From an uncultured Clostridia bacterium (lineage in GTDB: Bacteria > Bacillota > Clostridia > TANB77 > CAG-508), in contig CALXLP010000004.1 in the NCBI GenBank assembly GCA_944389225.1, forward strand, positions 7,314 to 71,313: a DNA stretch of 64,000 nucleotides, written 5' to 3'. Positions 13,902-46,109 of the stretch are shown piece after piece. The notes below the pieces were generated by a model that had not been told where the DNA came from, did not search any database, and saw only the letters and a program-made list of their open reading frames with translations. The number at the start of each line of letters is the position of its first letter. Position 1 is the first letter of the stretch. Position numbers and translations under genes: made by a program.

Positions 13902-14137
13902 ATTTATTTGTTTTTATTTATTACCTATTTTATTGTTTGTTTGTCCTTTTTAGAACTAAAGCTTATTAGAAAAAAATGATAAATACATATCATAAATTTT
14001 TACATTTATCATCTTTAAAAATTTTATATTTTCTTGCTAACTTTTACAACATTTTCCATTTGACAAAAGTGCCTTTTCCGTATACAATTAAGGTGGTTTA
14101 TTATGAAAAATTTATATACAAAAAAGGAGTTTTTGTC

Positions 14138-17100: not shown

Positions 17101-18484
17101 ACGTGAAAAAGAAAAAAGAGAAAATAATCATATTGGTGATTATGAACAACATAAAAAAATCTTTACAAAAGATATGAAAAAAGACTATACCATTTTAGTA
17201 CCACAAATGGCACCAATTCATTTTGAATTATTAGAAGCTGCCGTACAATCTAGTGGATATAAAGTGGAATTACTAAGAGAATGTACACAAAAAACAGTAG
17301 AAACTGGATTAAAATATGTAAATAATGATGCTTGTTATCCATCTATATTAGTAACTGGACAAATGATTGAAGCTCTTCAATCTGGTAAATATGACTTAAA
17401 TAGAACGGCTTTAATTATGTCTCAAACAGGTGGAGGATGTAGAGCAACTAATTATATAGGATTTATTAGAAAAGCTCTTAAAGATGCAGGATTTGAAAAT
17501 ATACCAGTTATTTCATTTAATATTGTTGGTATGGAAAAAATGCCAGGATTTAAAATAACGGTCCCATTAATTGAACGTTTATTAAAAACAATTCTATATG
17601 GTGATTTATTACAAAAAATGTTAACCAAAAACAGAGCTTATGAAAAAAATAAAGGAGAAACACAAAAATTATTTGATGAGTGGATGGAAAAATGCAAAAA
17701 ATTACTTCAAAAATCAACAACCAAAGAATTTAAACAAAGTATTTATGATATTGTCAATGACTTTGAAAAAATTGAATTAGATACATCTATCGAGAAACCT
17801 AGAGTTGGTATTGTTGGAGAAGTTCTTATTAAATATCATCCATTTGGAAATAATCATGTTGCTGATTTACTAGAAAAAGAGGGTGCTGAAGTTATTTTAC
17901 CTGACTTTATGGGATTTGTTAAATTTATGGCTACACATAAAATTACATTTAATACTTTATTAAATACCAATAAAACTTCTTCAAAAATTATGAAGGCTGC
18001 TATCAAATTAATTGATATTTTAGAAAAAGATATGAAAATTGCTTTAGCAAATTCTAAAAAAGGCTATTTACCACCTTGTGATATTTGGCACTTAGAAGAT
18101 AAAGTAAAAGATGTATTATCTATTGGAAATCAAACTGGTGAAGGTTGGTTCTTAACAGCTGAAATGATAGAATATATTGAACATAATATTCCAAATATCA
18201 TCTGTGTTCAACCATTTGCTTGCTTACCAAACCATGTTGTTGGTAAAGGTGTTATCAAAACCATTAGAGAAAAATATCCAGATGCCAATATTTCTCCAGT
18301 AGATTATGACCCTGGTGCTAGTGAAACAAATCAAGCAAACAGAATTAAATTATTAATGACTGTTGCTAAAGATAACTTAAAAACAAAACAAGCTAGAAAA
18401 GAAGCTATTGAAAAAGAAAATGAACCAGCACCACAAACAAACTCTGCTGAAAAAATCGAGCACTCACAAAAAATTGATGCGTAA
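14138..18484 (+). CDS. fused CoA-substrate-specific enzyme activase (two BadF/BcrA/HgdC-type ASKHA ATPase domains) plus 2-hydroxyacyl-CoA dehydratase (HgdB-like) domain
   Basis: Two ATPase N-termini (LHVGLDVGSTTVKI and CFLGIDAGSTTTKLVL), a CxxC cluster region and a C-terminal dehydratase-like domain; RBS AAAAGGAG before ATG at 14138. Confidence 0.75.
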   Translation: MNEILHVGLDVGSTTVKIIVMDNNKNTIYSDYRRHFSDAKKTVCEVLEELLVKYPSASFTIALTGSGAMSAAKFLGVDFIQEVVSCKRVIEKYFPKTDVVIELGGEDAKIIYFDNSIEQRMNGTCAGGTGAFLDQMASLLHTDTAGLNELAKGYQTIYPIASRCGVFAKTDIQPLINEGAAKEDIAASIFQAVVNQTISGLACGRPIRGNIAFLGGPLSYLPELRKRFIETLHLTDDQIIVPENAHLLVAKGAALDSFNTEVITPNELEKKIENFKQSHDTTTQPLDPLFKDEAEYEAFKERHNKATVPSKPLENYEGDCFLGIDAGSTTTKLVLIDRDGNLLYSLYGSNEGNPLQSVMDMLRKLYKVLPEKVILRYSGVTGYGEKLIQTALNVDLNEIETIAHYTAAKTFEPDVTSIVDIGGQDMKYIRIKNGSIDNIMLNEACSSGCGSFIETFAKSLNLEISEFVKEALKSRRPVDLGSRCTVFMNSKIKQAQKEGYSVGDISSGLSYSVIKNAIQKVMKVRDVETLGKHIVVQGGTFYNDAVLRAFELIVGKNVVRPNISGLMGAYGMALLSKEQYEANLDMEYTSTILKEDELDNLKIKITHTHCNNCENHCKLTINKFSNGQIHVTGNRCEKGAGIVTKSKNLPNLVQYKYERIFDYTPLEEQYATRGTIGIPRVLNMYEDYPFWFTFLTSLGFRVIISEKSTRKTYEKGMESMPSESVCYPAKLSHGHIESLLEQGIKTIFYPCMPYSRKEYEKADNHYNCPIVISYSEVLKNNVEGLKDPTVKFLNPFLPFDKKNLVKKILELDEFKQYHFTKEELNEAADKAEAEYQKCKEDIRRKGAETVKYIEENHLKGIVLAGRPYHVDPEINHGIDTLITSLGLCVLTEDSISNQTEVKRPIRVVDQWVFHARLYAAADFVGKHDCLELVQLNSFGCGVDAVTTDQVEEILSSYDKMYTLIKIDEVNNLGAVRIRIRSLLASMKRREKEKRENNHIGDYEQHKKIFTKDMKKDYTILVPQMAPIHFELLEAAVQSSGYKVELLRECTQKTVETGLKYVNNDACYPSILVTGQMIEALQSGKYDLNRTALIMSQTGGGCRATNYIGFIRKALKDAGFENIPVISFNIVGMEKMPGFKITVPLIERLLKTILYGDLLQKMLTKNRAYEKNKGETQKLFDEWMEKCKKLLQKSTTKEFKQSIYDIVNDFEKIELDTSIEKPRVGIVGEVLIKYHPFGNNHVADLLEKEGAEVILPDFMGFVKFMATHKITFNTLLNTNKTSSKIMKAAIKLIDILEKDMKIALANSKKGYLPPCDIWHLEDKVKDVLSIGNQTGEGWFLTAEMIEYIEHNIPNIICVQPFACLPNHVVGKGVIKTIREKYPDANISPVDYDPGASETNQANRIKLLMTVAKDNLKTKQARKEAIEKENEPAPQTNSAEKIEHSQKIDA

Positions 18485-19503: not shown

Positions 19504-19548
19504 AAAGAAATATCAAAAAATTCTAATTTGATATTTCTTTTTTTATTA
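19504..19548. terminator. bidirectional terminator between convergent genes
   Basis: GAAATATCAAA...TTTGATATTTC inverted repeat flanked by A-run and T-run. Confidence 0.5.
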
Positions 19549-21204
19549 TATTATATTTTTAAATAATTTATTTTTTCTTATTTGTTTTCTTACATATTTA
19601 TTAATAATACATAATATAATTGCAAATATTATAAAGGTTAGTAATATTCCTACATATATATTTAGATTCTCAAATGCCCTTTTTATATACATTAAAAGTA
19701 CAACCACTACAATTGTCCATACATATTGAAATATTTTATTTTGATTTTGCTTAAATACATCTATTTCTGCTTTCCAATCTAGTATCGGTCTTTTTATATC
19801 TACAATTAACATTAAAAAACTATTAGCAATTATTAGTATAATACTTACAATAAATGTCAATATCAACTCTACAATAGATACTGCTGGAAATATTATTTTA
19901 CAAAGAATTAATACAATTAATGAGATGATTATATTAATGATTACTTGTGGTACATTTTTCAATAAGAACTGTTTATACAAACTAATTGGTATATACTTCA
20001 TAAAAATAGCATTTGATCCTTGTCTAGAAATTGCAGTAATTGATATACTTACCATTGAACATAAAACCTGTATAATGCCTAATATAATACAAACACCTTC
20101 TATTGTTAAATGCATTTCTCCCAATAGGTTTGACAATTCTTGATTTTTTTCTATAATTCCCACCTTAAAATATATTGTTAAAATAATAAACATAATCATC
20201 ATCATACATATTGGATAAATTGTTTGCATAAAAAATATAGCATTTTTTATAAAGTTCTTAAAATCATTTTTTATATAGGATATTAATACATTTTGTACAT
20301 TGCATTGTGTTTCAAAATCAACCTTTTTCTCATGCTTATTCTTATTATATCCTGTTGTTTTTAATATATTTTTTATGTATGTTCTTTTTCCTAGTGCTAT
20401 TAGGATTACATACATGACTGCATAAATAGCAATTACCTTTACTAAATTTATAAATACTTGATCTCTATTTAAAATAGAAATTAATGGATTGACAACAATC
20501 ATACTACGATTAATCGTTTCTGATATGTTACTAGCATCTGTACCTATTGTATCAGCATCAAATTGAGTAGAAGTAATTCCTTTTATAAATAAAACTTCTG
20601 CAAACACAATAAGAAAAACAAAAAATAAAGTTATAAATATTTGAAACTTGTTCTTATTTTTTATTGTTTTTATAAATTTCATAATAATTAATGTTATTAT
20701 ACTTACTAGTACTACTGGAAATATTGGTAATAATGCTAATGCTAATATTACATACAAATAATAAGAAAACGATGCTGTTGTAGATATTCCATATAGTAAT
20801 AATGGTATTAGCATAAATAATAATTCTGTTCCATACAAAATATTTATAATTGTGTTTACTTTTGATAATAACAATTCTTCAGCTTTAATAGGCATTGGTA
20901 AAAAAGATTCTATATCTTTTGAAAAATATAATATATTCATACTTGCTGTAATCGTTTGCATAAACATAATTATAATTGCTATTGTAAAAAGAACATTAAG
21001 AAATATTTGCATTTGTCCATAATCTTCTAATATATTTAGTACCTCATTACTTACAAAGGCTATTGCTAATACAACAATTACAATTAACCAAACATACATA
21101 GATTTTTTATTAATCTTTTTTGTATTTTTATCTAGTAAATTAAGATTTTGCAAAAAATTTCTAGTTGATATTTTTGTTAATAATAATATATTTTTAATCA
21201 TCAC
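19546..21204 (-). CDS. polytopic ABC transporter permease (ABC-2-like), partner of the downstream ATPase
   Basis: 552 aa with at least 10 hydrophobic helices; overlaps the start of the ATPase gene by 11 nt. Confidence 0.5.
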   Translation of the reverse strand: MMIKNILLLTKISTRNFLQNLNLLDKNTKKINKKSMYVWLIVIVVLAIAFVSNEVLNILEDYGQMQIFLNVLFTIAIIIMFMQTITASMNILYFSKDIESFLPMPIKAEELLLSKVNTIINILYGTELLFMLIPLLLYGISTTASFSYYLYVILALALLPIFPVVLVSIITLIIMKFIKTIKNKNKFQIFITLFFVFLIVFAEVLFIKGITSTQFDADTIGTDASNISETINRSMIVVNPLISILNRDQVFINLVKVIAIYAVMYVILIALGKRTYIKNILKTTGYNKNKHEKKVDFETQCNVQNVLISYIKNDFKNFIKNAIFFMQTIYPICMMMIMFIILTIYFKVGIIEKNQELSNLLGEMHLTIEGVCIILGIIQVLCSMVSISITAISRQGSNAIFMKYIPISLYKQFLLKNVPQVIINIIISLIVLILCKIIFPAVSIVELILTFIVSIILIIANSFLMLIVDIKRPILDWKAEIDVFKQNQNKIFQYVWTIVVVVLLMYIKRAFENLNIYVGILLTFIIFAIILCIINKYVRKQIRKNKLFKNII

Positions 21205-21919
21205 TTATTATCTCCATAAATAATTCTTCTAATGAGTTATTTTCTTTCATTTTTTCTCTTAACTCTTCTATTTTTCCTACAAATACGATTTTTCCCTTAT
21301 TAATAATTGCTACTCTATCACATAAATTTTCTGCTACTTCTAATATATGTGTAGAAAAAAACACAACATTTCCATTTTTTGCATATTCTTTCATCATTGT
21401 TTTTAAATCATAAATTGCTTTTGGATCCAATCCTGTAATTGGTTCATCTAATATCCAATTTTTTGGTTGATGTAATAATACCCCTATAATAATTATTTTT
21501 TGTCTCATTCCATGTGAATAGCTCTCTATTTTTTCATTTAATGCTTCTTCCATATCAAATTTTTTAGATAATTCTTTTATAGCTTTTATTCTTTCTTCTT
21601 TTCCAACTTTATATATATCTGCCATAAAATTTAAATATTCTATTCCTTTTAAATTTAAAAACATATCTGGGCTATCTGGAATAAGTCCTATTTTCTTTTT
21701 CGCTTCATATGGCTCATTTTTTATACTTTTTCCATCAATAAAAATATCTCCCTCATCTATCTCTAAAATCCCTGTCATCATTTTTATTACTGTTGTTTTC
21801 CCAGCACCATTTGGTCCTAAAAATCCTAATATTTCTCCATCTTTAATTTCTAAATTCAAATTATCAATTATTTTAGATCCTTTTATATAAGATTTAGATA
21901 TATTTTTTATTTCTATCAT
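21194..21919 (-). CDS. ABC transporter ATP-binding protein
   Basis: Walker A GPNGAGKTT, signature LSGGMRQ-like (SHGMRQK), Walker B ILDEP. Confidence 0.85.
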   Translation of the reverse strand: MIEIKNISKSYIKGSKIIDNLNLEIKDGEILGFLGPNGAGKTTVIKMMTGILEIDEGDIFIDGKSIKNEPYEAKKKIGLIPDSPDMFLNLKGIEYLNFMADIYKVGKEERIKAIKELSKKFDMEEALNEKIESYSHGMRQKIIIIGVLLHQPKNWILDEPITGLDPKAIYDLKTMMKEYAKNGNVVFFSTHILEVAENLCDRVAIINKGKIVFVGKIEELREKMKENNSLEELFMEIISDD

Positions 21920-21992: not shown

Positions 21993-23345
21993 TTATTCAA
22001 TACTAAATGACATTACAAAATCTGTTTCCTCTTTTAAATTCATAATAATTGTCATATTTCTTTCGTTTGTTTCAGGATTTTGAGCATCTTTAAATTTTAG
22101 TTGATATATATATGCATTTCCTTCCTGGTAAAAATTTGTATATTCCACTTCATTTGTATCAAACAAATTATTTCTGATATCCTCCTCTAAATCATTTACA
22201 GTATTATAATTATTGTTTCTAAATGTATCATCTAATTTATCATATATATATTGATAATCTTTAGAATTAATTGCTTCTATAATTTTTTGTATATTCATTC
22301 CTACTTTAACTTCGTCTGTTGATGAATTATATTTTTCTATAAATTCTTCCATATCTATTGTATATGAATCCAACATTACTGTATATGTTCCTGGATATGT
22401 AACATAAAATATGAAGTAATTATTATATCCATCTACACATATGTATCTAGTATAATCCGCAAATTGTTCTACTAAATAGCTTGTTAATCCAAATTTTTCA
22501 TTTTTACTTGCAAATTCATAATATTCATTAAAATTTTCATATTCTGAAATATCTTTATCTTCAAATTCAAGTGAAATATTAAATCTATTTCTATTATTTT
22601 GGATATATGTATTAAATTCATCTATTGAGCTAAATCTTTTGTTCTGGTATTCTTTGTCCAATAAATTATAAGCCTCTTCACTATCTGTAAGCATAGTTTT
22701 TATATAATCTGCAAAATATAACTTTGACGTAACTTCATCATTTAAATCTTTATATACATAAGAATTATAAACTTTTTTGTCTATATTTTGTACATCATCC
22801 TCTTCTACATCATTTTGGTTATTAATTCTATCATTATAAAAATCTTCTGTAGTTGGTTCTATATCAAATGTCTGATTATTAAGATCTAAATGAACAATAA
22901 AATAAACATTTTGGTGATCTATTCTTCCTTTAACATAATATGTTGTTATACTAAAATTAGCTAATTCATACATTTCTACTGTTCGATATGTATTATAATC
23001 ATTATATTTTTCTAAAACAGTAAGTATATTATTGTTATTAACATTATTTTTATTTATATAATTTTCGTTTAAATATGTCATTAATACACTACTATCCTCA
23101 ACCTCTAACATTCTAAAGTATGATTTTATACATTCATCAACTGTATAATATGTTACAGCATTATTGGTTCTAATAAGTGAAATTGGATTTTTATCCTCAG
23201 ACTTAATTCCTTCTTTACTTTCAAGTATTTCATCATATTTACTATCTTCTTCTTTTAATGCTTTCACTAATAGAATAGATACAATTAAAATAATAATCAA
23301 TAAACCTATTATAGAATATATTATAATTTTCTTTTTATTTTTCAT
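21993..23345 (-). CDS. membrane-anchored extracellular protein, Asn/Tyr-rich, unknown function
   Basis: N-terminal TM helix then 420-aa hydrophilic domain; sits immediately downstream of the T4SS hydrolase gene. Confidence 0.4.
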   Translation of the reverse strand: MKNKKKIIIYSIIGLLIIILIVSILLVKALKEEDSKYDEILESKEGIKSEDKNPISLIRTNNAVTYYTVDECIKSYFRMLEVEDSSVLMTYLNENYINKNNVNNNNILTVLEKYNDYNTYRTVEMYELANFSITTYYVKGRIDHQNVYFIVHLDLNNQTFDIEPTTEDFYNDRINNQNDVEEDDVQNIDKKVYNSYVYKDLNDEVTSKLYFADYIKTMLTDSEEAYNLLDKEYQNKRFSSIDEFNTYIQNNRNRFNISLEFEDKDISEYENFNEYYEFASKNEKFGLTSYLVEQFADYTRYICVDGYNNYFIFYVTYPGTYTVMLDSYTIDMEEFIEKYNSSTDEVKVGMNIQKIIEAINSKDYQYIYDKLDDTFRNNNYNTVNDLEEDIRNNLFDTNEVEYTNFYQEGNAYIYQLKFKDAQNPETNERNMTIIMNLKEETDFVMSFSIE

Positions 23346-23368: not shown

Positions 23369-26300
23369 CTATGTTCCACAGAATGAAAAATGCATATAAT
23401 CCTTAGAAGATGTCCAATCTCCTCCCCAGCCCCATCCAGCTGCTTTGAAAGATTGAACCAAAGCACTATCTGGTTTTATTGAGTATGGGTTATTTCCAGG
23501 ATCATAGAACCAATTTCCTGTTGGGCTTCCATTTTTGAACTGTCCATTTTCTGTTGAATTAATATCAACTGCTAATCCATAGCAATGTTGACTGTGAGGT
23601 AATCCTCCTGCTTTACCTGCATTATCAGACCATCTCCATGATCCATATCCACCAATTTCATATATTTTAAATCCTTCTTGTTGAGCCGCATAACATGCAT
23701 TATATACATCTTGAGCAATTGCTTTATGCACTTGAACAGCTATAGTATATTTGTTTCCACTTTTACTTGTTGCTGGAACATTTATTGTTGTTAAATATGG
23801 CATTAATTCTGATTCATTTTGAGGTATACCATTTGGGAATAAATTTGCTACTTTTGTATATGCATCTGCATTAGCATATTCAGTTGATGCAGTTCCTGTT
23901 GTAGCTACTAATGCTCCTTCTCCGAAGATTTGAGTTGCACATTGCATTATTTTTTCAACATAAGCTGCGGCATAATCTGCTTCTTCCTGCAATGTATGTC
24001 CATCTCCTATATATGCATATGCTGAAAATACATCATATATTGTAGACATATCTCCTCTAAATTTATTATTAACCGTAGCAAATTCTGCTGCTCTTGCTTG
24101 ATATGTAGGATTTCCATTAATTTGACTATTAATTTGATTACAATATCCTTGTACAGCATTTTCCATGCTCGCATAACTATTTCCATAATTCTGTCCATTA
24201 TATACTGCTATTCCCCAATAGTTATATGGTGAAGTACTTGGGTCATCCCAATTTTGTTCTTGCCATGCTTGTGCTGCACAAAGTACAGGGTTTATATTGT
24301 TTCTTACACATACATCATATATAGTTCCTGCATTATCTCTAAATACTTGTGTTCCTGATCCTTTACTAATAGCTGGTGCGTAACTTTGTACTGCTGCAAT
24401 AAACTCTTCTCTGGTAAAAGATGTTGTTGTAATACTTAATAATCCTAATCCTCCTGAGGCACCAGTAACACCATTAAATACAAATACATTAAAATCAAAT
24501 TCTGTTACTCCATAATCTTTTCCTGTGGCTTTATAGAATAAATATTTTGTCAAGTCCACAAAATCTGTCATTCCATTTCCTTCTAATAAATCAAATAACC
24601 ACTCTGAAGCTCCTAGTAAATGATGTTTTGCCTTCTGATTTCCGTCTTTTAACAATATTGTTACAAAATTAGGCTCTGTTGCATTTTTATCTGTTTTTTC
24701 TTCTACCGTAGCTGGTGATGCAACATATTTGGTAGTATCTGTCTTATTGGTAATTTCCTCTGTTATTTCAAATACTCCATGCCATACATTACAAGTTGTA
24801 TTAACACTTGAACTAACAATTGTATTTCCTTGACTAGTTAAAGCACTTTCCTCTGATTGTAGGGTTGCTGCTCCATCTCCATTTCTATCTTCTTGTATTT
24901 GTTCTGGATCTCCATATTCTACATTATCTAATGATTGTGCACCTCCACTTTGTTCTTCTCCATTTTGTGTTCCCTGATATTCATACTGTTTCGTATACTT
25001 TAACATCCAAACATCTGCTTTTGTTAAACTAATATCTAATGTATTTGTCGTTGTAATTGTTGTTTTAGTCGTTTTACATGGATCTGGATACTCCACTGGC
25101 TCAAAACCACTAGACTTAGAAAATGTTTTTACTTGATTTCCTTGTGAAGCTGCTGCTCCACTTGTATTATTAGAATGATATGTAATACTTCCTTCAACAT
25201 TAGTCGTTTGTACCTTTTCTGTTCTAGTATAGTTATATATGTCTTTTTTTGTATGTACATTTAAATTATCATGTACAGTAATTTCTATATCACTATCATA
25301 TACTAAATCTGCTAAATCTAATACAAAATCTTGATCTTCACTTTGAACTAACAAATCCCATAGATAGTCAAATGGCATTGTATATCCTTTAACAAAGTCT
25401 TGATAATTTATTTTTTGTGTTGTCATTGATAATGTTGTATTATTACTTTCTTCTACTTGTGGATCATCTGTTTCCACTATTACTTGTGTTTGACTCCAAG
25501 TAGCTACAACTACACTATATGCATTTTGATTTTGTGCTGTCCCTGTGTTTTCTACCTGATCTATCTCTTTATTCAAATACTTGCTATTATAATCATCAAG
25601 AGTCACATTACTTTCAACTAAATATATCTTTGCACCACTTGTATATGAACCATATGGCGCTGCATTTAACGTTGATTGATCCACATTAGCATATACATCT
25701 ACCTGATTATCAGCCAATCCACCACCTGTATCTGTTACATAGAAAAATTTTCCATTAGCATATGAACCTTCTCCATCTTCAGCTGTTTCTATGTAAATTA
25801 CACTATTTTTATATTGTTGTAAATCTTTCATAGCTACTTGTCCATCTGATAATTCATATCCTATTGCATTTAACTTTCCACCTTCCATTGCAGAACCGTC
25901 TCCATTGTAGAAAGTTATCTTTCCATTGTCAGTTATTAATTGCATATCTACAGTCGATGTTTCTTCTTCATCACTATCATCATCATCTTCTTCTCCGTCT
26001 TCATCTCCACCAGATATAATTTTTGTTGGACTTCCTGCTTGCCATCCCCATCCTAACCATCCAGTTCTACCATCTACTGTAAATCCATATCTTTCCTGCC
26101 ATGCAACCCACTCTTCTAAGGATTGCGTTCTTATTCCATTACTAACACTATCCATTACTTGTCCATTACCTATATATATACCAACATGTCCTGCACCATA
26201 TGCTCCTGTTCCTGTCCCGTAAACAGCTGCACCTATAGGTATATTATCCATATCTGTTGACACAACATTTGCCCTATACGCATCAACTGCTTTTGCATAT

Positions 26301-27061
26301 GCTACATCGCCTAATCCTGCATTTGCATAAACGGCTCTTACCCAGGCCTGACACAAACTAGCTCCTGGCCATGGTGTAATCTGTGCTGCTGCTATAATTC
26401 TTTCTGATATATCTGTTACAATATCGCTTCCATTATATTCTAGATTATCAGTTGCTCCACTACCTGTTGTCATATTTTTTTCTATTGTAAAATGGGTTAA
26501 TGCATTTTGTCTAGCACTTTCATCTCCAGTAGAACAATAGATTTCTATCCAATTATAAAATGTGTCACTATCCACATATGACATCGTGGCAGTTGTACCA
26601 TCACTTTGTGCTCTTTTAAATTTGATAATTCCTTGAACATCTGTAGATTCTAAATCACTATTAATTGTATCCCAATCAATTTCTTCATCTGGATTTGGTC
26701 TTAAATCTGGATAATTGGTTACAATTTCAGCATTCATTAATTTTAATAATTCTTCAGGACCGTCCAAATACAAATCAACTCTGCTTCCTTCTTCCATCAT
26801 TTTATCCCATAGCTCTTGAGCTGACATACTTGTAGATATTTTTCCATCAGAATTTATAGATGTATTTCCTGTATACTGTCCAGCTGCATATTGTGTATTT
26901 GCCCAATCTCCTTCTTTATATGTTCCATCATTCTTTTTAACAACATATACAGCTGCTGATATAATAATAAGAATTATCAACACCGAAGGTAATACCAATT
27001 TAATAGCTCGTTTTCCCATATTTTTTAAATTTTGTTTTATTTTTTGTAATTTCTCATTCAT
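23369..27061 (-). CDS. T4SS-associated multidomain peptidoglycan hydrolase: TM anchor, NlpC/P60-CHAP-like cysteine peptidase, 3D (RlpA/MltA-like) domain, lysozyme/GH73-like domain and C-terminal peptidase M15 (VanY-like) domain
   Basis: Cys in ASLCQAWVRAVY and His in GHVGIYIGNG (papain-like dyad); KFFYVTDTGGGLADNQVDVYANVD (3D motif); VLCAAQAWQEQNW (glycosidase-like); HSQHCYGLAVDIN (M15 H-x-x-G-x-A-x-D zinc motif). 1230 aa. Confidence 0.8.
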   Translation of the reverse strand: MNEKLQKIKQNLKNMGKRAIKLVLPSVLIILIIISAAVYVVKKNDGTYKEGDWANTQYAAGQYTGNTSINSDGKISTSMSAQELWDKMMEEGSRVDLYLDGPEELLKLMNAEIVTNYPDLRPNPDEEIDWDTINSDLESTDVQGIIKFKRAQSDGTTATMSYVDSDTFYNWIEIYCSTGDESARQNALTHFTIEKNMTTGSGATDNLEYNGSDIVTDISERIIAAAQITPWPGASLCQAWVRAVYANAGLGDVAYAKAVDAYRANVVSTDMDNIPIGAAVYGTGTGAYGAGHVGIYIGNGQVMDSVSNGIRTQSLEEWVAWQERYGFTVDGRTGWLGWGWQAGSPTKIISGGDEDGEEDDDDSDEEETSTVDMQLITDNGKITFYNGDGSAMEGGKLNAIGYELSDGQVAMKDLQQYKNSVIYIETAEDGEGSYANGKFFYVTDTGGGLADNQVDVYANVDQSTLNAAPYGSYTSGAKIYLVESNVTLDDYNSKYLNKEIDQVENTGTAQNQNAYSVVVATWSQTQVIVETDDPQVEESNNTTLSMTTQKINYQDFVKGYTMPFDYLWDLLVQSEDQDFVLDLADLVYDSDIEITVHDNLNVHTKKDIYNYTRTEKVQTTNVEGSITYHSNNTSGAAASQGNQVKTFSKSSGFEPVEYPDPCKTTKTTITTTNTLDISLTKADVWMLKYTKQYEYQGTQNGEEQSGGAQSLDNVEYGDPEQIQEDRNGDGAATLQSEESALTSQGNTIVSSSVNTTCNVWHGVFEITEEITNKTDTTKYVASPATVEEKTDKNATEPNFVTILLKDGNQKAKHHLLGASEWLFDLLEGNGMTDFVDLTKYLFYKATGKDYGVTEFDFNVFVFNGVTGASGGLGLLSITTTSFTREEFIAAVQSYAPAISKGSGTQVFRDNAGTIYDVCVRNNINPVLCAAQAWQEQNWDDPSTSPYNYWGIAVYNGQNYGNSYASMENAVQGYCNQINSQINGNPTYQARAAEFATVNNKFRGDMSTIYDVFSAYAYIGDGHTLQEEADYAAAYVEKIMQCATQIFGEGALVATTGTASTEYANADAYTKVANLFPNGIPQNESELMPYLTTINVPATSKSGNKYTIAVQVHKAIAQDVYNACYAAQQEGFKIYEIGGYGSWRWSDNAGKAGGLPHSQHCYGLAVDINSTENGQFKNGSPTGNWFYDPGNNPYSIKPDSALVQSFKAAGWGWGGDWTSSKDYMHFSFCGT

Positions 27062-27078: not shown

Positions 27079-28023
27079 TTAGATTTCTACTTCTATAGAA
27101 TTATTATATTTAGGTGAATTTGTTTTATAATTTAATATCACCCTAGAAAAGACTAATTTATCTATTTCTTTTTCTGAACCATATTTACTGTAATATTTTA
27201 TTTCTATTTCTTTTGTTTCTCTTGGACTAACTTCTAAGTCCGCCTCTCCAATTTCATGTGTATATGCTGGATATTGAATACCATTTTTATCTTCAATATA
27301 CATTGCATTTATATCTTGTCTATCATCTAAGATAATAGCATTTTCTGAATTATTTTTTACACGTATTTTAAAGATTTGATAGTCCATATATGTTTTTTCT
27401 TCTAAAACTTCTATTTGAATTCCATCTTGTTCATTGGATTTGTTTATTTCTTTTTTTCCTATATAATTATTAATATTTAGCTTATATGTATCATCTTGTT
27501 CTTCTACAGTTATATAATCTTGTTTGGTATTTTCTTTTGTATATTTTCCTGTTGAAAGAAAATCGTCATTAATGCTTATTTTGTATATATTATCTATCCA
27601 ATTTTCAACACCTACATTTTTCTTGGTATTTTCAAAAACCTTATCATAATAGGCTTCTCTGAAAACTTCTTCTGTAGAATACATTTCTTGTTTACAATCT
27701 TCTGTCAATAAAGCATATGCCTCTGAAATTTGTTGATTATTACAATACTCTATAAACATATCTATTGTATCTACTTCTGATAATTGATCTGAAGAAAGAT
27801 TTTCACCTGTAATTGTTGATTGTGTTTCATCTAAAGTAACACTATTATATTCTTTTACTTCATTTGAATTTTGAATTTGATTTGTTTCTTGTAATATTTT
27901 TTCATTGTCTACTTTACTCCAGTAATTAAATAATTGTATAACAAGTATTACTAATGCAATAATCCCAATAATTATCCAAATTATTTTTCTGTTTTGGTTG
28001 TACCATCTAATGAATCTATACAT
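27079..28023 (-). CDS. bitopic membrane protein, candidate VirB8-like (Orf13/TcpC/ConB-like) T4SS component
   Basis: N-terminal TM then ~280-aa extracytoplasmic domain; position in the cluster next to the hydrolase. Confidence 0.35.
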   Translation of the reverse strand: MYRFIRWYNQNRKIIWIIIGIIALVILVIQLFNYWSKVDNEKILQETNQIQNSNEVKEYNSVTLDETQSTITGENLSSDQLSEVDTIDMFIEYCNNQQISEAYALLTEDCKQEMYSTEEVFREAYYDKVFENTKKNVGVENWIDNIYKISINDDFLSTGKYTKENTKQDYITVEEQDDTYKLNINNYIGKKEINKSNEQDGIQIEVLEEKTYMDYQIFKIRVKNNSENAIILDDRQDINAMYIEDKNGIQYPAYTHEIGEADLEVSPRETKEIEIKYYSKYGSEKEIDKLVFSRVILNYKTNSPKYNNSIEVEI

Positions 28024-28166: not shown

Positions 28167-30035
28167 CTATCTTAAGTTTTTCTTTAATGATTCAAATTCA
28201 TGTGTCATCTTTGTGATTCGTTTTGCTTTTCCTTCGGCACGTTGTTGAGAATTTCCTCTATCTGTAAATTCTTTTGTATATCCACCTTCTATATCTGCTC
28301 TATCTTTAGGTTTTTGTCTTGTTATATCTCCATATTTATCATAAGCATCATAGAATACCATGGCATCATTAAAGTTTACATTTTTCTCTTTTTGTAATTT
28401 TTCTAATGCTGCAATATCTTTTGCATCTGTAATTTCATTTTTCAAATATTGATCAATTTTATTATCCTTATATAAACTTTTTGCTCCTTCTCTTCCTAAA
28501 TATCTTTCTAGTTCTTGTCTCTTTTCATCATCACGTTTCCATTTTTTCATATTCTTTTGAGCCATATGGTCATCATATTTATCTCCATAGAACTCTCTTT
28601 CTCTGGCAATCTGCATTGCTGATTTAGTATTAGATGTTTCTACACCAGCCCTTGAAGCACCAATTGTTCCTGCCGCTAAAGCTGCTCCTCCACCATATGT
28701 AATTAAATTACTTGGATCTCCAGATGCAATAGCAGCTCCTACGCCTATTGCTCCTGCTGTTGCTCCTAAAGCTACCCCTGCTGCTGCTTTTACTGCAAGA
28801 TTTGGTGCTGCTGCAATTGCTCCGCCTACTGTTCTTCTAGCAGTTCTTATTGCATTCTTTGTACCTTGTTTTGCAGTATATTTTATTGCTCTTCCTGCTC
28901 CTTTTACTACATCTCCCGCAGTCATTCTTCCAGCTCTACCTCTTGATCCTTTTATTTTTGGTGTTTGCTTTCTTTGTGCCGTTTCACTTTCTTTTAAAGC
29001 TTCTTCTTCTGCTTGTTTTGTTTCTTTTTCTTGCTTTTGTTCTAATTCTCTTAAATTTTTGTTATAATATGGGTCATTAAGCGGATTATATTCTGAATCG
29101 TATTCACTTGTATCTGGATTAAAATATTCTCCTAAAGCATTTTTGTCAAAACCTTCTTGTTGATATTTCTTTAAAGCTTCTTCTTCATTCTTTAATCTTT
29201 GATTATAACCCGGATCTTCAAGTGGATTATATTCCGAATCATACTCATCTGTATACGGATTATAATATTCTCCTAAAGCATTTTGATCAAAACCTTCACT
29301 CTTATATTTTTGCATTGCATCTTCTTCGTAATTAGGTCCTTTTGGTTCTGATTCGGAACCTCCTCCACTATCTAATGGTGTTAGAGGTGTTTCATCATCA
29401 TCAAAATTACTATTATCATTTGCCATGCCATCTAATGGATCAAAATCATTACCTCTATATCCTATTCTTGCTGGTGCACTTGCGTTATCTCCATCATTTC
29501 CATGACCTCCATTTTTTCCACCTTTTCCTGAAGGTGCTCTATGTAACAATTGGTGTAGACCTGTATTGATTAATCCTGCTCCTACTGCCGCACCTGCCAT
29601 TGAAGGTGGTGTATTTGCTTTTTCAAATCCAAAGAAGCTACGCATTAATTTTTCTGCTGGAATTAAAAATCCTATTGCTACTAATGAATAGATAGGGTTT
29701 TTTCCTGCTAAATCAAATGCTGATGTAACAAGAATTGTATATATTAATAAATGTAATGGTTGTATTAATAAGTTAAAAATATATTCCTTCAACCACTTAT
29801 TAAATGCTTGTGCTTGTCCATCACTTATTTTATCTATTGGATATGTTAATGCAACTAATGGTGCTATCATGGTTAAAAATGCCATATATAATACCCTTTT
29901 TAAATAAGTAAACACAAAGAAGATTGTTAATAATGTTAATATAAAGAAACATAATCCATATCCTATAAAAGATGCATCTCCATAACTCATTTCTGCCTGT
30001 ATTCTTAATTGTCCCATTAAATTCGTTGGCCACAT
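28167..30035 (-). CDS. VirB6/TrbL-like polytopic membrane protein with long low-complexity C-terminal extension containing tandem peptide repeats
   Basis: Five or more TM helices in the first 170 aa (PLVALTYPIDKI..., LLIYTILVTSAFDLAG); the C-terminus has a ~38-aa unit duplicated (EGFDxNALGEYxNPxTxEYDSEYNPLxDPxYN), which is a 114-bp direct DNA repeat. Confidence 0.5.
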   Translation of the reverse strand: MWPTNLMGQLRIQAEMSYGDASFIGYGLCFFILTLLTIFFVFTYLKRVLYMAFLTMIAPLVALTYPIDKISDGQAQAFNKWLKEYIFNLLIQPLHLLIYTILVTSAFDLAGKNPIYSLVAIGFLIPAEKLMRSFFGFEKANTPPSMAGAAVGAGLINTGLHQLLHRAPSGKGGKNGGHGNDGDNASAPARIGYRGNDFDPLDGMANDNSNFDDDETPLTPLDSGGGSESEPKGPNYEEDAMQKYKSEGFDQNALGEYYNPYTDEYDSEYNPLEDPGYNQRLKNEEEALKKYQQEGFDKNALGEYFNPDTSEYDSEYNPLNDPYYNKNLRELEQKQEKETKQAEEEALKESETAQRKQTPKIKGSRGRAGRMTAGDVVKGAGRAIKYTAKQGTKNAIRTARRTVGGAIAAAPNLAVKAAAGVALGATAGAIGVGAAIASGDPSNLITYGGGAALAAGTIGASRAGVETSNTKSAMQIAREREFYGDKYDDHMAQKNMKKWKRDDEKRQELERYLGREGAKSLYKDNKIDQYLKNEITDAKDIAALEKLQKEKNVNFNDAMVFYDAYDKYGDITRQKPKDRADIEGGYTKEFTDRGNSQQRAEGKAKRITKMTHEFESLKKNLR

Positions 30036-30090: not shown

Positions 30091-30984
30091 TTATAAAATC
30101 CGCAATTCTTTCATTTTCTTCAATAATTTATCTTGTTCTTGTAGAGTTACAGCATATCCTGTAGCAGTTGATGTTGAACCTGATTGATTGTTGGCAGCTG
30201 CCACTACTTTAGTAAATTGATTTACTATTGTTACTGAAAAGGACATAATATAATGCATAAAGAATAATAAACATAAACCTACTACCCAATCTATCAACAT
30301 TTGTTTATATTTTGCCTTATCTTGTGCCACTGTAGATAATAACATTCTTATTCCTATATATAACAATACAGACATTGATAGTACAATAGCAATATTTCTA
30401 ATTGCCGCATACCATTGACTAACTAAAGATTGTAATTCTAATGCCACATTCTGTTTTGATGTAATGATTTCGTTTCCATTTTCATCTTCATAAAAATAAT
30501 CTCTTACTTCCTCATCATCAGCCATAGCATCCATAAGTTCTTCATCAGTATCATAATCATTTAAATTATATACATTACCTTCTCCTACAACCTTTCCATC
30601 ATCATTTACTTTATTGGTATGCATTTTTATAGTATCTACAGGATTAAAGAAATCAACATCAAACAATAATATATTTCCTTTAAAAATTTCTTCTGGTGAT
30701 ATTGAATATAGTGGCAAAATTAGGTCTTCTGGATACATTGTCTTATCAAATGCAATACCAGCCATAACTCCACCTGCAACACCTACAATTATGGCTCCTG
30801 TTCCTATAGATGCTGTAACTGTAGCCCCAATAACAGCTGATGCAATTACTGCTGCTGCTCCTGCCGTAAAAGCAATTAGCAGTACAGCTGCAATACCAGC
30901 TGCTACGCCTACTAAAACACTTACCAATTTTTGCCAAAATGAATCAGACATATCTACACGAATAACAGAATCATTTTGTCCCAT
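30091..30984 (-). CDS. Gly/Ala-rich polytopic membrane protein, possibly the N-terminal half of a split VirB6-like protein
   Basis: 297 aa; TM bundle at residues 20-80 and two more helices near the C-terminus; the downstream ORF frame opens 1 codon after its stop. Confidence 0.45.
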   Translation of the reverse strand: MGQNDSVIRVDMSDSFWQKLVSVLVGVAAGIAAVLLIAFTAGAAAVIASAVIGATVTASIGTGAIIVGVAGGVMAGIAFDKTMYPEDLILPLYSISPEEIFKGNILLFDVDFFNPVDTIKMHTNKVNDDGKVVGEGNVYNLNDYDTDEELMDAMADDEEVRDYFYEDENGNEIITSKQNVALELQSLVSQWYAAIRNIAIVLSMSVLLYIGIRMLLSTVAQDKAKYKQMLIDWVVGLCLLFFMHYIMSFSVTIVNQFTKVVAAANNQSGSTSTATGYAVTLQEQDKLLKKMKELRIL

Positions 30985-41496: not shown

Positions 41497-41499
41497 TTC

Positions 41500-46105: not shown

Positions 46106-46109
46106 CTTG

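What the first reader, a model, noticed from the sequence alone, without database searches (positions are those of the whole stretch)
23369..27061. 1230-aa cell-wall hydrolase combining four distinct catalytic modules
One membrane-anchored protein carries a papain-like NlpC/P60-CHAP peptidase (Cys in ASLCQAW, His in GHVGIYIG), a 3D/RlpA-like domain (KFFYVTDTGGGLADNQVDVY), a lysozyme/GH73-like glycosidase (VLCAAQAWQEQNWDDP) and a C-terminal VanY/M15 zinc peptidase (HSQHCYGLAVDIN). Conjugation-associated hydrolases such as CwlT, PrgK, TcpG and Tn916 Orf14 usually have one to three such domains. Four in one chain is at the extreme end and implies the machine can cut both the glycan strand and several peptide bonds.
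Basis: partly seen in the sequence, partly recalled or inferred. Interest (0 to 1): 0.55.

Follow-up and report, generated by a model that had tools for sequence, protein, structure and literature searches.

The report
Four-enzyme wall cutter of chromosomal T4SS
A 1230-residue membrane-anchored protein of an uncultured gut Clostridia bacterium really does carry four different, apparently intact cell-wall-cutting enzymes strung on a conserved scaffold of unknown fold, and it belongs not to a plasmid or other mobile conjugative element but to a chromosome-fixed, pilin-bearing type IV secretion system next to the replication origin.

Summary
The ORF (23369-27061, minus strand, 1230 aa) is real, and all four modules hold up. 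NlpC/P60 and M15_4 pass Pfam's cut-offs. The 3D module is a DPBB fold (Foldseek to MltA/YuiC, probability 0.98-0.99). The fourth module is a divergent GH73 glucosaminidase (hhalign 96.3% to canonical GH73 in relatives; invariant Glu935 on the catalytic Glu). Catalytic residues are near-invariant in every module.

Two interpretations need correction.
- Four modules exceed any characterised T4SS hydrolase (PrgK has three). They are common in this protein's own family, though: 34 of the 120 closest relatives have four or more. That family has at least 822 cluster representatives. It is built on a conserved N-domain and a central domain with 35-39-residue beta strands that matches no known fold. 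Hydrolase cassettes are swapped in and out of fixed slots.
- The setting is not an evident conjugative element. The cluster lies in the chromosome beside oriC, is syntenic across divergent Clostridia MAGs, has four tandem VirB2 pilin genes, and has no relaxase, coupling protein, integrase or att repeat in 64 kb. It resembles the non-conjugative Patescibacteria T4SS.

Best reading: the VirB1-type wall-breaching subunit of that system. It is a new variant of a known kind.

The parts
23369..27061 (-). Whole ORF, 1230 aa: multi-module peptidoglycan hydrolase, the VirB1-equivalent of the T4SS cluster
   Evidence: ORF list and translation. Identical protein P0001 is in public collections.
26939..26998 (-). 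aa 22-41: hydrophobic single-pass membrane anchor after a K-rich cytoplasmic N-terminus
   Evidence: Read directly from the sequence. No topology predictor was run.
26447..26926 (-). aa 46-205: conserved N-domain of unknown function, part of the family backbone
   Evidence: Present in 120 of 120 relatives. No Pfam, NCBIfam or PDB match.
26027..26446 (-). aa 206-345: NlpC/P60 (C40) cysteine peptidase module; Cys237, His292, Asp304
   Evidence: Pfam PF00877 at aa 237-325, 26.9 bits, above the cut-off of 23. C237 conserved in 93/95, H292 in 95/95, D304 in 93/95. Weak PDB matches to CwlO, MepS and LytE.
25940..26026 (-). aa 346-374: acidic Asp/Glu-rich linker
   Evidence: Composition. pLDDT below 50 at the start of model 2.
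25547..25939 (-). aa 375-505: 3D-type DPBB module, a putative lytic transglycosylase; invariant D388, E393, D444, D455
   Evidence: PF06725 hit in 17/17 family members, best E=4.9e-5, below the cut-off. Foldseek: MltA, YuiC and LtgG at probability 0.87-0.99; phage 3D-domain proteins at E=4.6e-4, probability 1.00. Aligns to the canonical 3D domain of a C. botulinum plasmid T4SS hydrolase. Residue conservation.
24452..25531 (-). aa 511-870: central conserved domain of unknown fold, with 28-39-residue beta strands and helical bundles; the family-defining scaffold
   Evidence: Present in 120 of 120 relatives. 822 cluster representatives at E<=1e-3. pLDDT mostly above 90. No credible match in PDB or BFVD, in Pfam, or by PDB sequence profile.
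23882..24424 (-). aa 880-1060: divergent GH73-like glycosidase module; invariant Glu935 and N947-Y-W-G950
   Evidence: hhalign to Pfam-positive GH73 modules in the same slot: 96.3%, E=1.9e-9, with controls at or below 1.8%. Glu935 aligns to the ESGWG Glu. Profile hit to Listeria Auto 3fi7, E=0.0011. PF01832 E=0.0024, below the cut-off. Top Foldseek hits are the GH73 enzymes LytB, Acp, AtlE, FlgJ and SagB.
23372..23731 (-). aa 1111-1230: M15_4 (VanY-type) zinc peptidase module; His1159, Asp1166, His1224
   Evidence: Pfam PF13539 at 60.9 bits, above the cut-off of 25. PDB matches to Ply500 L-alanyl-D-glutamate peptidase (2vo9, E=2.3e-4) and LysB4. PHROG endolysin families. Zinc ligands conserved in 23/23.
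34883..36457 (-). Array of four tandem VirB2/TrbC-type pilin genes (125, 127, 143 and 128 aa)
   Evidence: PF18895 and/or PF04956 above cut-off for each. Paralogous DNA repeats D1 and D2.
34314..34661 (-). PrgI/VirB3-like protein
   Evidence: PF12666, E=3.3e-5. Conserved in related loci.
33158..34321 (-). 387-aa TraC-like protein preceding VirB4
   Evidence: The positional counterpart in L008 carries PF26593 TraC-like. Conserved in L001-L007.
31202..33145 (-). VirB4-type T4SS ATPase
   Evidence: P-loop_TraG, AAA_10 and DUF87. 83-98% identical in related MAGs. 42% identical to C. botulinum plasmid VirB4.
30091..30984 (-). 297-aa protein with a T4SS_pilin domain
   Evidence: PF18895, E=1.5e-6.
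28167..30035 (-). 622-aa polytopic membrane protein in the VirB6 position (assignment inferred from position and hydrophobic N-terminal half)
   Evidence: Sequence. Conserved position in L001-L008. No Pfam family.
27079..28023 (-). 314-aa membrane-anchored protein immediately upstream of the hydrolase, co-conserved with it; function unknown
   Evidence: No PDB sequence match.
21993..23345 (-). 450-aa membrane-anchored protein immediately downstream of the hydrolase, co-conserved with it; function unknown
   Evidence: No PDB sequence match.
19546..21919 (-). ABC-type ATPase (241 aa) plus a 552-aa partner, conserved at the end of the cluster in several relatives
   Evidence: PF00005. Synteny in L001, L002 and L006.

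Best explanation
The protein is the cell-wall-breaching (VirB1-equivalent) subunit of a chromosomally encoded monoderm type IV secretion system that also encodes an array of VirB2-type pilins.

Shown:
- It has an N-terminal membrane anchor; the domains that follow are inferred to lie outside the cell.
- On a conserved non-catalytic scaffold it carries four hydrolase modules of different families: NlpC/P60, 3D/DPBB, GH73-like and M15_4. The catalytic residues are conserved in each.
- It is always encoded inside the same T4SS gene cluster.
- Its modules are exchanged like cassettes among relatives.

Inferred from what is established for the named families:
- The NlpC/P60 module cuts the stem peptide (gamma-D-Glu-diamino acid type bond).
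- The M15_4 module cuts a second peptide bond. The closest solved relatives are phage L-Ala-D-Glu peptidases.
- The 3D module acts as an MltA/YuiC-type lytic transglycosylase, and the GH73-like module as an N-acetylglucosaminidase. The two would then attack the two different glycosidic bonds of the glycan strand.

Inferred from the anatomy: one peptidase and one glycan-cleaving module sit on the membrane side of the central domain and the other such pair on its far side. The central domain, predicted to be built on 28-39-residue beta strands, could act as a spacer that lets the enzyme open a channel through the full depth of a thick Gram-positive wall. The T4SS channel or pilus would then be assembled through that hole.
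For: Module identities.

Catalytic residue conservation: C237/H292/D304; D388/E393/D444/D455; E935 and NYWG; H1159/D1166/H1224.

T4SS context and strict co-occurrence. In every locus examined (L001-L009) the hydrolase lies between the same two anchored proteins, downstream of VirB4 and the VirB6-position protein.

Scaffold conservation and confident model.

Slot-wise module swapping and mosaic identities.

Against: There are no biochemical data. The 3D and GH73-like modules do not reach Pfam's curated cut-offs, and Foldseek E-values are modest (GH73 best 0.014; 3D best 4.6e-4).

[quoted passage not shown] Family-based bond assignments can therefore be wrong, and some modules may be regulatory or PG-binding.

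The spacer role of the central domain rests on a monomer prediction; its oligomeric state and length were not measured. No VirB8-like partner was identified. What this relaxase-less T4SS transports is unknown, so 'assembly through its own wall' cannot be separated from 'attack on another cell's wall'.
Confidence: 0.65

Rival explanations
1. Outward-directed weapon or docking drill. The modules beyond the central domain (and possibly all four) act on the wall of another bacterium, whether host, partner or prey, that is contacted through the pilus/T4SS. This would be analogous to the Patescibacteria T4SS, where peptidase and lysozyme genes next to virB4 are essential for epibiotic growth. Cassette swapping would track the peptidoglycan chemistry of the targets.
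For: The T4SS type matches the Patescibacteria description: chromosomal, near dnaA, VirB2 arrays, no relaxase (PMC12102498). Modules and extracellular components diverge fast (35-42% identity) while VirB4 stays at 83-98%. Modules are mosaic and exchanged. Many modules are of phage-lysin type: PF18013, M23, Amidase_5, M15_4.
Against: The protein has an N-terminal anchor and no sign of release. Surface proteins diverge fast for many reasons. The organism encodes SpoIIR and ordinary housekeeping genes, and nothing here shows a dependent or predatory lifestyle. No immunity gene is evident next to it.
Confidence: 0.17
2. Hydrolase of a conjugative element. The cluster would be the mating-pair-formation module of an ICE or of a degraded ICE integrated at tRNA-Ser, and the enzyme would open the wall for DNA transfer.
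For: The components are MPF_FATA-like: PrgI and VirB4. The cluster begins immediately 3' of two tRNA-Ser genes. The cluster interior has slightly higher GC (0.31-0.32 against about 0.27). A related VirB4 (42% identity) lies on Clostridium plasmids.
Against: There is no relaxase, VirD4, integrase or replication gene in 64 kb. The second P-loop ATPase is a VirB4 paralogue, not a coupling protein. No att-like repeat of the tRNA end was found. The same cluster with the same housekeeping flank (the BcrAD-type activase gene) is present in divergent MAGs. The backbone is absent from 72,556 plasmids. The related C. botulinum plasmids are typed non-mobilizable.
Confidence: 0.12
3. Only one or two modules are catalytic. 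The others are PG-binding or auto-inhibitory domains, as reported for the LytM and CHAP domains of PrgK.
For: The PrgK precedent (PMC11323569). The 3D and GH73-like modules are divergent enough to fall below Pfam cut-offs.
Against: Unlike PrgK's LytM domain, every module here keeps its catalytic or metal-binding residues, near-invariant across 14-95 homologues.
Confidence: 0.25
4. A general autolysin or cell-separation enzyme that merely happens to lie beside T4SS genes.
For: NlpC/P60, GH73 and M15 modules are typical of housekeeping autolysins.
Against: Position within the T4SS cluster is strictly conserved in all nine related loci examined. The conserved scaffold domains are not found in characterised autolysins.
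Confidence: 0.04

Closest known systems
PrgK of Enterococcus faecalis pCF10 (VirB1-like, 'DELTA' class of large Gram-positive T4SS peptidoglycan hydrolases)
   Same: Both are membrane-anchored, multi-module extracellular PG hydrolases encoded inside a monoderm T4SS operon. Both combine a metallopeptidase, a glycan-cleaving module and a papain-like peptidase, and both have phage-lysin-like modules.
   Different: PrgK has three modules (LytM, MUR/'SLT', CHAP), a degenerate LytM and a long cytoplasmic N-domain. This protein has four modules of other families (NlpC/P60, 3D, GH73-like, M15_4), all with intact catalytic residues. It also has about 520 residues of conserved scaffold, which returned no PDB sequence match and which is absent from all 72,556 plasmids searched. 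PrgK serves a conjugative plasmid; this protein serves a chromosomal, relaxase-less system.
Two-module conjugative hydrolases: TraG (pIP501; SLT+CHAP); CwlT (ICEBs1; muramidase+NlpC/P60) and TcpG (pCW3; glucosaminidase-like+NlpC/P60) from my own knowledge, not tested here
   Same: They pair a glycan-cleaving module with an NlpC/P60- or CHAP-type cysteine peptidase in T4SS-associated proteins.
   Different: They have half as many modules, no 3D or M15 module and no large scaffold domains, and they are encoded on plasmids, ICEs or transposons together with relaxases.
T4SS of Patescibacteria (e.g. Ca. Southlakia epibionticum ML1; PMC12102498, PMC12857230)
   Same: Both systems are chromosomal, MPF_FATA-related, close to dnaA, with arrays of divergent VirB2-like pilins and without a relaxase. 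In both, peptidase/lysozyme genes are encoded immediately downstream of virB4 (searches compared).
   Different: The host here is a Clostridia MAG lineage with sporulation genes, not an ultrasmall epibiont. [quoted passage not shown] No phylogeny linking the two VirB4 clades was made here. The Patescibacteria locus is reported to include VirD4- and VirB8-like genes; none was detected here.
T4SS cluster of Clostridium botulinum / C. beijerinckii plasmids (e.g. NZ_KT897276.1; hydrolase WP_269467655.1, 'C39 family peptidase')
   Same: The gene order is the same: small pilin-like protein, small protein, about 330-aa protein, VirB4 (42% identical), large membrane protein, hydrolase. That hydrolase carries a canonical 3D domain that aligns to this protein's 3D module.
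   Different: The plasmid hydrolase is 682 aa with only Peptidase_C39_2 and 3D, and it lacks the N-domain and central scaffold.
YuiC (B. subtilis) and MltA: 3D/DPBB lytic transglycosylases
   Same: The best structural matches of aa 375-505 (probability 0.87-0.99). The acidic residues in the DTGGG and VDVY motifs are conserved.
   Different: The sequence is too divergent for the Pfam cut-off. Here it is an internal module of a giant protein.
GH73 N-acetylglucosaminidases (Listeria Auto, pneumococcal LytB, S. aureus AtlE/SagB, FlgJ)
   Same: The catalytic-Glu motif aligns, and they are the top structural matches.
   Different: Identity is only 12-18%. The beta-hairpin region is modelled with low confidence. 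A second catalytic residue was not identified. The module is below Pfam's cut-off.

Membership tests
NlpC/P60 (Pfam PF00877, MEROPS C40) | Significant match to the family profile above the curated cut-off | tested here: met
   26.9 bits against a cut-off of 23, aa 237-325, profile positions 16-100 of 105.
NlpC/P60 (Pfam PF00877, MEROPS C40) | Catalytic Cys and His plus a third polar residue, in family order | tested here: met
   C237 (93/95), H292 (95/95), D304 (93/95; His in the other 2). Aligns with CwlO, MepS and Spr around GHVGIY.
NlpC/P60 (Pfam PF00877, MEROPS C40) | Papain-like fold; endopeptidase activity on stem peptides | not tested
Activity requires experiment.
3D domain (Pfam PF06725) / DPBB lytic transglycosylases (MltA, YuiC) | Match to the family profile above the curated cut-off | tested here: not met
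   14.4 bits in the full protein and 18.5 bits for the isolated segment, against a cut-off of 23.8. However, 17 of 17 family members hit PF06725 as their top family, best E=4.9e-5.
3D domain (Pfam PF06725) / DPBB lytic transglycosylases (MltA, YuiC) | Double-psi beta-barrel fold | tested here: met
   Foldseek: MltA (7esj, 2pic, 2gae) at probability 0.98-0.99, YuiC (4wli) at 0.98. Phage '3D domain-containing proteins' at E=4.6e-4, probability 1.00.
3D domain (Pfam PF06725) / DPBB lytic transglycosylases (MltA, YuiC) | Conserved aspartates of the active site | tested here: inconclusive
   D388, D444 and D455 (and E393) are invariant in 31/31. D444 and D455 lie in the stretch matched to the Pfam profile and align to DTG..IDIY of a canonical 3D domain. 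Which residue corresponds to the catalytic Asp of MltA or YuiC was not mapped.
GH73 (Pfam PF01832 Glucosaminidase) | Match to the family profile above the curated cut-off | tested here: not met
   No hit in the full protein. The isolated segment scores 19 bits against a cut-off of 30.2, but covers profile positions 4-119 of 123.
GH73 (Pfam PF01832 Glucosaminidase) | Homology to bona fide GH73 domains | tested here: met
   hhalign of the module's alignment against Pfam-positive GH73 modules of relatives: 96.3%, E=1.9e-9, 134 columns. Four unrelated-module controls gave 0.1-1.8%. HMM hit to Listeria Auto 3fi7, E=0.0011.
GH73 (Pfam PF01832 Glucosaminidase) | Catalytic Glu in the (A)xxE(S/G)xW motif, followed by the N-x-(F/W)-G motif | tested here: met
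   E935 is invariant (14/14) and aligns to the Glu of ESGWG/ESNWG. N947-Y-W-G950 aligns to NFFG/NLFG.
GH73 (Pfam PF01832 Glucosaminidase) | Lysozyme-like alpha/beta fold of GH73 | tested here: inconclusive
   The top-ranked Foldseek hits are GH73 enzymes (LytB, Acp, AtlE, FlgJ, SagB, TM0633) with probability up to 1.00. But E>=0.014, TM is about 0.45, and the hairpin region has pLDDT below 50.
Peptidase M15_4 (Pfam PF13539; VanY-type LAS metallopeptidase) | Match above the curated cut-off | tested here: met
   60.9 bits against a cut-off of 25. PHROG endolysin families.
Peptidase M15_4 (Pfam PF13539; VanY-type LAS metallopeptidase) | Zinc ligands H-x6-D ... H | tested here: met
   H1159, D1166 and H1224 are invariant in 23/23. 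The C-terminal DYxHF aligns to Ply500 and LysB4.
VirB1-type T4SS peptidoglycan hydrolase (functional class, Gram-positive form) | Encoded within a T4SS cluster next to VirB4/VirB6-type genes | tested here: met
VirB1-type T4SS peptidoglycan hydrolase (functional class, Gram-positive form) | Membrane anchor with extracellular enzymatic domain(s) | tested here: met
   Hydrophobic aa 22-41 after a K-rich N-terminus, read from the sequence. Definition from PMC12857230. Topology was not computed.
VirB1-type T4SS peptidoglycan hydrolase (functional class, Gram-positive form) | Required for, or stimulating, T4SS function | not testable with these tools
   Needs genetics in an uncultured organism.
Conjugative element (ICE or plasmid) component | Relaxase and type IV coupling protein associated with the MPF genes | tested here: not met
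   None in 64 kb. The only other P-loop ATPase is a VirB4 paralogue. None in L008/L009. Genes elsewhere in the genome cannot be excluded.
Conjugative element (ICE or plasmid) component | Integrase or replicon, and element boundaries | tested here: not met
   No integrase. No direct repeat of the tRNA-Ser 3' end. The housekeeping flank is conserved across divergent MAGs. The backbone is absent from plasmids.

The most novel reading that the evidence does not exclude
The hydrolase is the wall-drilling subunit of a Firmicute counterpart of the Patescibacteria-type T4SS. [quoted passage not shown] On this reading the system is used for contact with other cells rather than for conjugation. The interchangeable enzyme cassettes, held on a novel long-beta-strand scaffold, would be tuned to the peptidoglycan of the cells it contacts. 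This would also identify gut Clostridia as a reservoir, or possible donor lineage, of that machinery.
Probability: 0.2. Interest if true: 0.85.

Novelty: new variant of a known kind. Interest (0 to 1): 0.6.

Why it matters
How monoderm T4SSs get through a thick wall is an open question in the field. The best-studied hydrolase, PrgK, is reported to reach only about half-way through the wall and to have one active domain.

This family offers a natural experiment on that question:
- a conserved scaffold that may act as a spacer, with enzymes on both sides of it;
- up to five modules per protein, all apparently intact in the protein studied here;
- slot-wise swapping among at least 822 clusters of relatives.

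The genomic setting also matters. It suggests that pilin-bearing, non-conjugative chromosomal T4SSs are not confined to Patescibacteria but also occur in spore-forming gut Clostridia. That makes their origin and function testable in a second lineage. The modules themselves are a source of diverse, possibly chemotype-specific peptidoglycan hydrolases.

Tried and rejected
1. I first assumed the fourth module was PF18013 (phage tail lysozyme), because the 60%-identical relative P0011 has PF18013 in that slot. BLAST showed the two slots are not homologous, so I rejected this. The query's module is a different cassette.
2. Sequence profile of the 3D module against PDB gave nothing. The fold search was needed.
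3. Profile of the whole backbone against PDB returned only the C-terminal NlpC/P60 of relatives. Nothing matched the N-domain or central domain.
4. Central domain as a phage tail, fibre or secretin-like fold: secretin, injectisome and tail-fibre hits in PDB and BFVD have probability at or below about 0.2 and TM at or below 0.11. I treated them as artefacts of the long strands. The diffocin hub-hydrolase 8v3w_H (probability 0.96, 165 columns) was not resolved to a region.
5. NCBIfam gave no usable match.
6. tblastn of the protein against plasmids returned only three single-module hits, so no plasmid-borne family member exists in PLSDB.
7. The flanking anchored proteins (314 aa and 450 aa) against PDB, to find a VirB8-like partner: no hits.
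8. The ICE-at-tRNA idea: no att repeat and no integrase.
9. The 514-aa ATPase as a coupling protein: rejected. It is a VirB4 paralogue at 26% identity, E=1e-41.
10. Literature searches for a pilin-bearing chromosomal T4SS in Clostridia, or for PF18895 outside Patescibacteria, found nothing in the held library.

Full report
THE OBSERVATION

An intact ATG-initiated ORF of 1230 codons occupies 23369..27061 on the minus strand. It is not an assembly or frameshift artefact. The identical protein exists in public collections (P0001). Relatives at 88-89% identity with the same length and Pfam domains are known (P0002, P0003). A genome-resolved MAG carries an 87.7%-identical copy in the same gene order (L001). 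The N-terminus (MNEKLQKIKQNLKNMGKRAIK, then LVLPSVLIILIIISAAVYVV) reads as a positively charged cytoplasmic stub followed by one hydrophobic helix. The remaining roughly 1190 residues should therefore lie outside the membrane. This is read from the sequence; no topology predictor was run.

THE FOUR MODULES

1. NlpC/P60 (aa ~206-345).
   - Pfam PF00877 scores 26.9 bits, above the gathering score of 23.
   - Across 95 homologous segments, Cys237 is kept in 93, His292 in 95 and Asp304 in 93, the other two having His.
   - Weak PDB matches are to CwlO, MepS/Spr and LytE.

2. 3D-type DPBB (aa ~375-505).
   - Pfam PF06725 stays below its cut-off: 14.4 bits in context, 18.5 bits in isolation, against 23.8.
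   - All 17 diverse family members tested nevertheless hit it as their top family, best E=4.9e-5.
   - An AlphaFold2 model of aa 355-880 (52-sequence alignment, mean pLDDT 80.5) gave high-probability Foldseek matches only to DPBB proteins. The strongest are lytic transglycosylases: MltA from three species at probability 0.94-0.99, B. subtilis YuiC at 0.98, and LtgG.
   - In the viral library the best matches are annotated '3D domain-containing protein', at E=4.6e-4 and probability 1.00.
   - The module aligns (FYVTDTGGGLADNQVDVY against YHAVDTGSAIKGNIIDIY) to a canonical, Pfam-significant 3D domain (E=5e-16) in the T4SS hydrolase of C. botulinum plasmids.
   - D388, E393, D444 and D455 are invariant in 31/31.

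3. GH73-like (aa ~880-1060).
   - The full-length scan found nothing here.
   - The 60%-identical relative P0011 carries a PF18013 phage-tail lysozyme in this slot, but BLAST shows the two slots are not homologous.
   - The query's cassette is shared with another subset of relatives.
   - Its alignment has an invariant Glu (E935, in AQAWQEQNW) and an invariant N-(Y/F)-W-G.
   - A profile of it hits one PDB protein convincingly: the GH73 autolysin Auto of Listeria (3fi7, E=0.0011), placing E935 on the Glu of ALESNWG.
   - The isolated segment matches Pfam Glucosaminidase over 116 of 123 profile positions, at 19 bits against a cut-off of 30.2.
   - Decisive test: hhalign against an alignment of Pfam-positive GH73 modules occupying the same slot in relatives gives 96.3% probability and E=1.9e-9 over 134 columns. 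Four control modules give 0.1-1.8%. E935 aligns to the ESGWG Glu and NYWG to NFFG.
   - The AlphaFold2 model (pLDDT 74.5, pTM 0.75) retrieves GH73 enzymes as its top hits: LytB, Acp, AtlE, FlgJ, SagB and TM0633. G-type lysozymes and lytic transglycosylases follow. E-values are weak, 0.014 and above.

4. M15_4 (aa ~1111-1230).
   - PF13539 scores 60.9 bits against a cut-off of 25.
   - PHROG endolysin families match.
   - PDB matches are to the phage L-alanyl-D-glutamate peptidases Ply500 (2vo9) and LysB4.
   - S1157-x-H1159-x6-D1166 and D1221-x2-H1224 are invariant in 23/23.

All four assignments therefore stand. Two rest on curated thresholds and two on convergent sub-threshold sequence, profile-profile and fold evidence.

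A search of 5.8 billion proteins returned 308 relatives. Mapping them on the query shows that the enzymes are not the constant part. The constant parts are an N-domain (aa 46-205) and a central domain (aa 511-870), each present in all 120 closest relatives. Neither matches any Pfam or NCBIfam model, or any PDB sequence, even as a profile.

The central domain is predicted with very high confidence (pLDDT mostly 90-97). It is built on beta strands of 39, 28 and 35 residues, plus helical bundles. It has no credible structural neighbour in PDB or BFVD; the secretin, injectisome and tail-fibre hits have probability at or below about 0.2 and TM at or below 0.11.

An exhaustive HMMER scan of 1.84 billion cluster representatives finds 822 proteins with this domain at E<=1e-3 and 216 at E<=1e-30. 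Most of those listed are 900-1400 aa long.

Around this scaffold the hydrolase modules sit in fixed slots:
- N-domain
- slot 1: NlpC/P60, 3D or M23
- slot 2: 3D, SGNH/GDSL or M23
- central domain
- slot 3: GH73, GH73-like or PF18013 lysozyme
- slot 4: M15_4 or NlpC/P60/CHAP

A census with locally built HMMs, which is a lower bound, gives 16 relatives with two modules, 70 with three, 32 with four and 2 with five. Fifteen carry four different kinds.

Per-module identities are mosaic.
- P0005 is 83-96% identical over the N-domain, NlpC/P60, 3D and central domain, but has both C-terminal modules replaced.
- P0013 is only 42% identical in the central domain but 86-87% identical in the 3D and GH73-like modules.

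Modules are therefore exchanged by recombination among relatives. Four modules is more than in any characterised T4SS hydrolase, but it is ordinary in this uncharacterised family.

CONTEXT

The gene lies in a minus-strand cluster, listed here in the direction of transcription:
- four tandem VirB2/TrbC-type pilin genes (34883-36457);
- a PrgI/VirB3-like gene;
- a TraC-like gene;
- VirB4;
- a 297-aa protein with a T4SS_pilin domain;
- a 622-aa polytopic protein in the VirB6 position;
- a 314-aa anchored protein;
- the hydrolase;
- a 450-aa anchored protein;
- an ABC ATPase with a 552-aa partner.

But the window is the chromosomal origin region: rnpA, yidC, jag, mnmE, mnmG, rsmG, parA and parB on one side; dnaA, dnaN, recF and gyrB on the other; and a GC-skew switch at about 48 kb. 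The organism encodes SpoIIR and ordinary metabolic genes. The relatives are labelled uncultured Clostridia, Eubacteriales or Clostridium gut MAGs.

No relaxase, VirD4-type coupling protein, integrase or replication gene was found among the ORFs scanned (nearly all of those of at least 80 aa) in the 64 kb. The only other P-loop ATPase (56278-57822) is a VirB4 paralogue, at 26% identity and E=1e-41. Although the cluster starts just 3' of two tRNA-Ser genes, there is no att-like repeat.

The same cluster, with the same housekeeping neighbour (a BcrAD/DUF2229 activase gene), is found in divergent MAGs. There VirB4 is 83-98% identical, while the hydrolase retains only 35-42% identity, and only in its central domain. 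A distant family member (P0052, seen on 75 contigs) sits in the same gene order, again without a relaxase or coupling protein.

The hydrolase backbone is absent from 72,556 plasmids. VirB4 has 42%-identical relatives on C. botulinum and C. beijerinckii plasmids. The C. botulinum plasmid examined is typed non-mobilizable, and it carries a similar gene order with a shorter C39_2+3D hydrolase.

COMPARISON WITH WHAT IS KNOWN

Characterised Gram-positive VirB1 equivalents are membrane-anchored with one to three enzymatic domains (PMC12857230). PrgK has LytM, MUR ('SLT') and CHAP. Its LytM is degenerate and only MUR is active in vitro, and a fully extended PrgK is estimated to reach about the middle of the wall (PMC11323569).

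The genomic setting here matches the recently described Patescibacteria T4SS much better than it matches a conjugative element. That system is related to MPF_FATA, chromosomal, often near dnaA, carries arrays of divergent VirB2-like pilins and lacks a relaxase. In Ca. Southlakia epibionticum, peptidase and lysozyme genes immediately downstream of virB4 are essential (PMC12102498).

[quoted passage not shown] The Microbial Genomics paper treats VirB2-like pilins as absent from MPF_FATA. The present locus, and to a lesser degree the Clostridium plasmids, show such pilins beside an MPF_FATA-like VirB4 in Clostridia. I found no paper describing this in the held library. That is not proof that none exists.

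MECHANISM

Shown:
- The protein has an N-terminal membrane anchor, and the rest is inferred to be extracellular.
- It carries four modules of four hydrolase families with conserved catalytic residues.
- It is invariably embedded in a T4SS cluster.
- It has a conserved scaffold and swappable modules.

Inferred from family knowledge: two glycan-cleaving activities (MltA/YuiC-type lytic transglycosylase; GH73 glucosaminidase) and two stem-peptide peptidases (C40 DL-endopeptidase type; M15 L-Ala-D-Glu or D-Ala-D-Ala type).

Inferred from anatomy: one peptidase plus glycan-enzyme pair lies on each side of the central domain. That domain may act as a spacer, so the enzyme can open the wall through its depth for the channel or pilus.

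The main rival is that the modules beyond the central domain act on another cell's wall, as suspected for Patescibacteria. The evidence here cannot separate the two. The PrgK precedent warns that some modules may be regulatory, although here no active site is degenerate.

VERDICT

- Novelty: a new variant of a known kind, namely a VirB1-type hydrolase built on a previously undescribed scaffold with cassette-like modules, in an unusual chromosomal T4SS.
- Interest: 0.6.

Noticed in passing
window 58826-~63600: About 4.8 kb with 13-16% GC, strongly A-rich on the + strand. It has no ORF of 80 aa or more and no Rfam family. It lies between gyrB and gyrA. The same gene-free gap is present in three independent metagenome assemblies (L011-L013), so it is not an artefact of one assembly. 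Nature unknown.
   Followed up: partly
window 55475-58825: A second, partial T4SS-like gene set is inserted between gyrB and gyrA. It comprises a 173-aa TraC-like protein (paralogue of the 387-aa TraC-like protein, E=4e-10), a 514-aa VirB4 paralogue (26% identity to the cluster's VirB4, E=1e-41), and a 336-aa K/I/N-rich ORF with no family match.
   Followed up: partly
window 34883-36457 and 30091-30984: Four tandem, divergent VirB2/TrbC-type pilin genes, plus a 297-aa protein with a T4SS_pilin domain, in a spore-forming Clostridia chromosome. Recent reviews describe VirB2 pilins in Gram-positive-type T4SSs as known only from Patescibacteria.
   Followed up: partly
window 38989-49625: The window spans the chromosomal replication origin: parB, parA, rsmG, mnmG, mnmE, jag, yidC and rnpA on the minus strand; dnaA, dnaN, recF and gyrB on the plus strand; a GC-skew sign change near 48 kb. 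The T4SS cluster starts about 12 kb from dnaA. The Patescibacteria T4SS paper reports the same proximity for some genomes.
   Followed up: yes
window 28167-30035 (repeat at 29051-29327): The VirB6-position protein has a long, low-complexity, partly repeated cytoplasmic or extracellular tail, with a tandem repeat of about 140 nt encoding ...NALGEY(Y/F)NP(Y/D)T(D/S)EYDSEYNPL.... In relatives, only its N-terminal membrane part is conserved.
   Followed up: no
window 36988-38457: A PMT_2-family (dolichyl-phosphate-mannose-type) glycosyltransferase of 489 aa sits between parB/DUF4446 and the tRNA-Ser pair that precedes the pilin array. Any link to glycosylation of pilins or the wall is speculation.
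   Followed up: no
L010 (C. botulinum plasmid NZ_KT897276.1) 9225-17713: Plasmids of cultured C. botulinum and C. beijerinckii encode a VirB4 that is 42% identical; the C. botulinum plasmid examined is typed non-mobilizable and has a related T4SS gene order, with weak T4SS_pilin matches. Its 682-aa hydrolase is made of Peptidase_C39_2 plus a canonical 3D domain. These are possible cultivable models for this T4SS type.
   Followed up: partly
window 24422-25999 (model of aa 355-880): Foldseek also matched the diffocin baseplate 'Hub-Hydrolase' CD1368 (8v3w_H, probability 0.96, 165 columns). The same chain is the top PDB sequence hit of the family profile, through the C-terminal NlpC/P60 of relatives. 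Which part of the query model it aligns to was not resolved.
   Followed up: no
window 13976-18484: A 1502-aa fusion of two BcrAD/BadFG-type ATPase domains with DUF2229 (an activase of a CoA-dependent dehydratase type). It is 80-98% identical in related MAGs and serves as the conserved housekeeping flank of the T4SS cluster.
   Followed up: no
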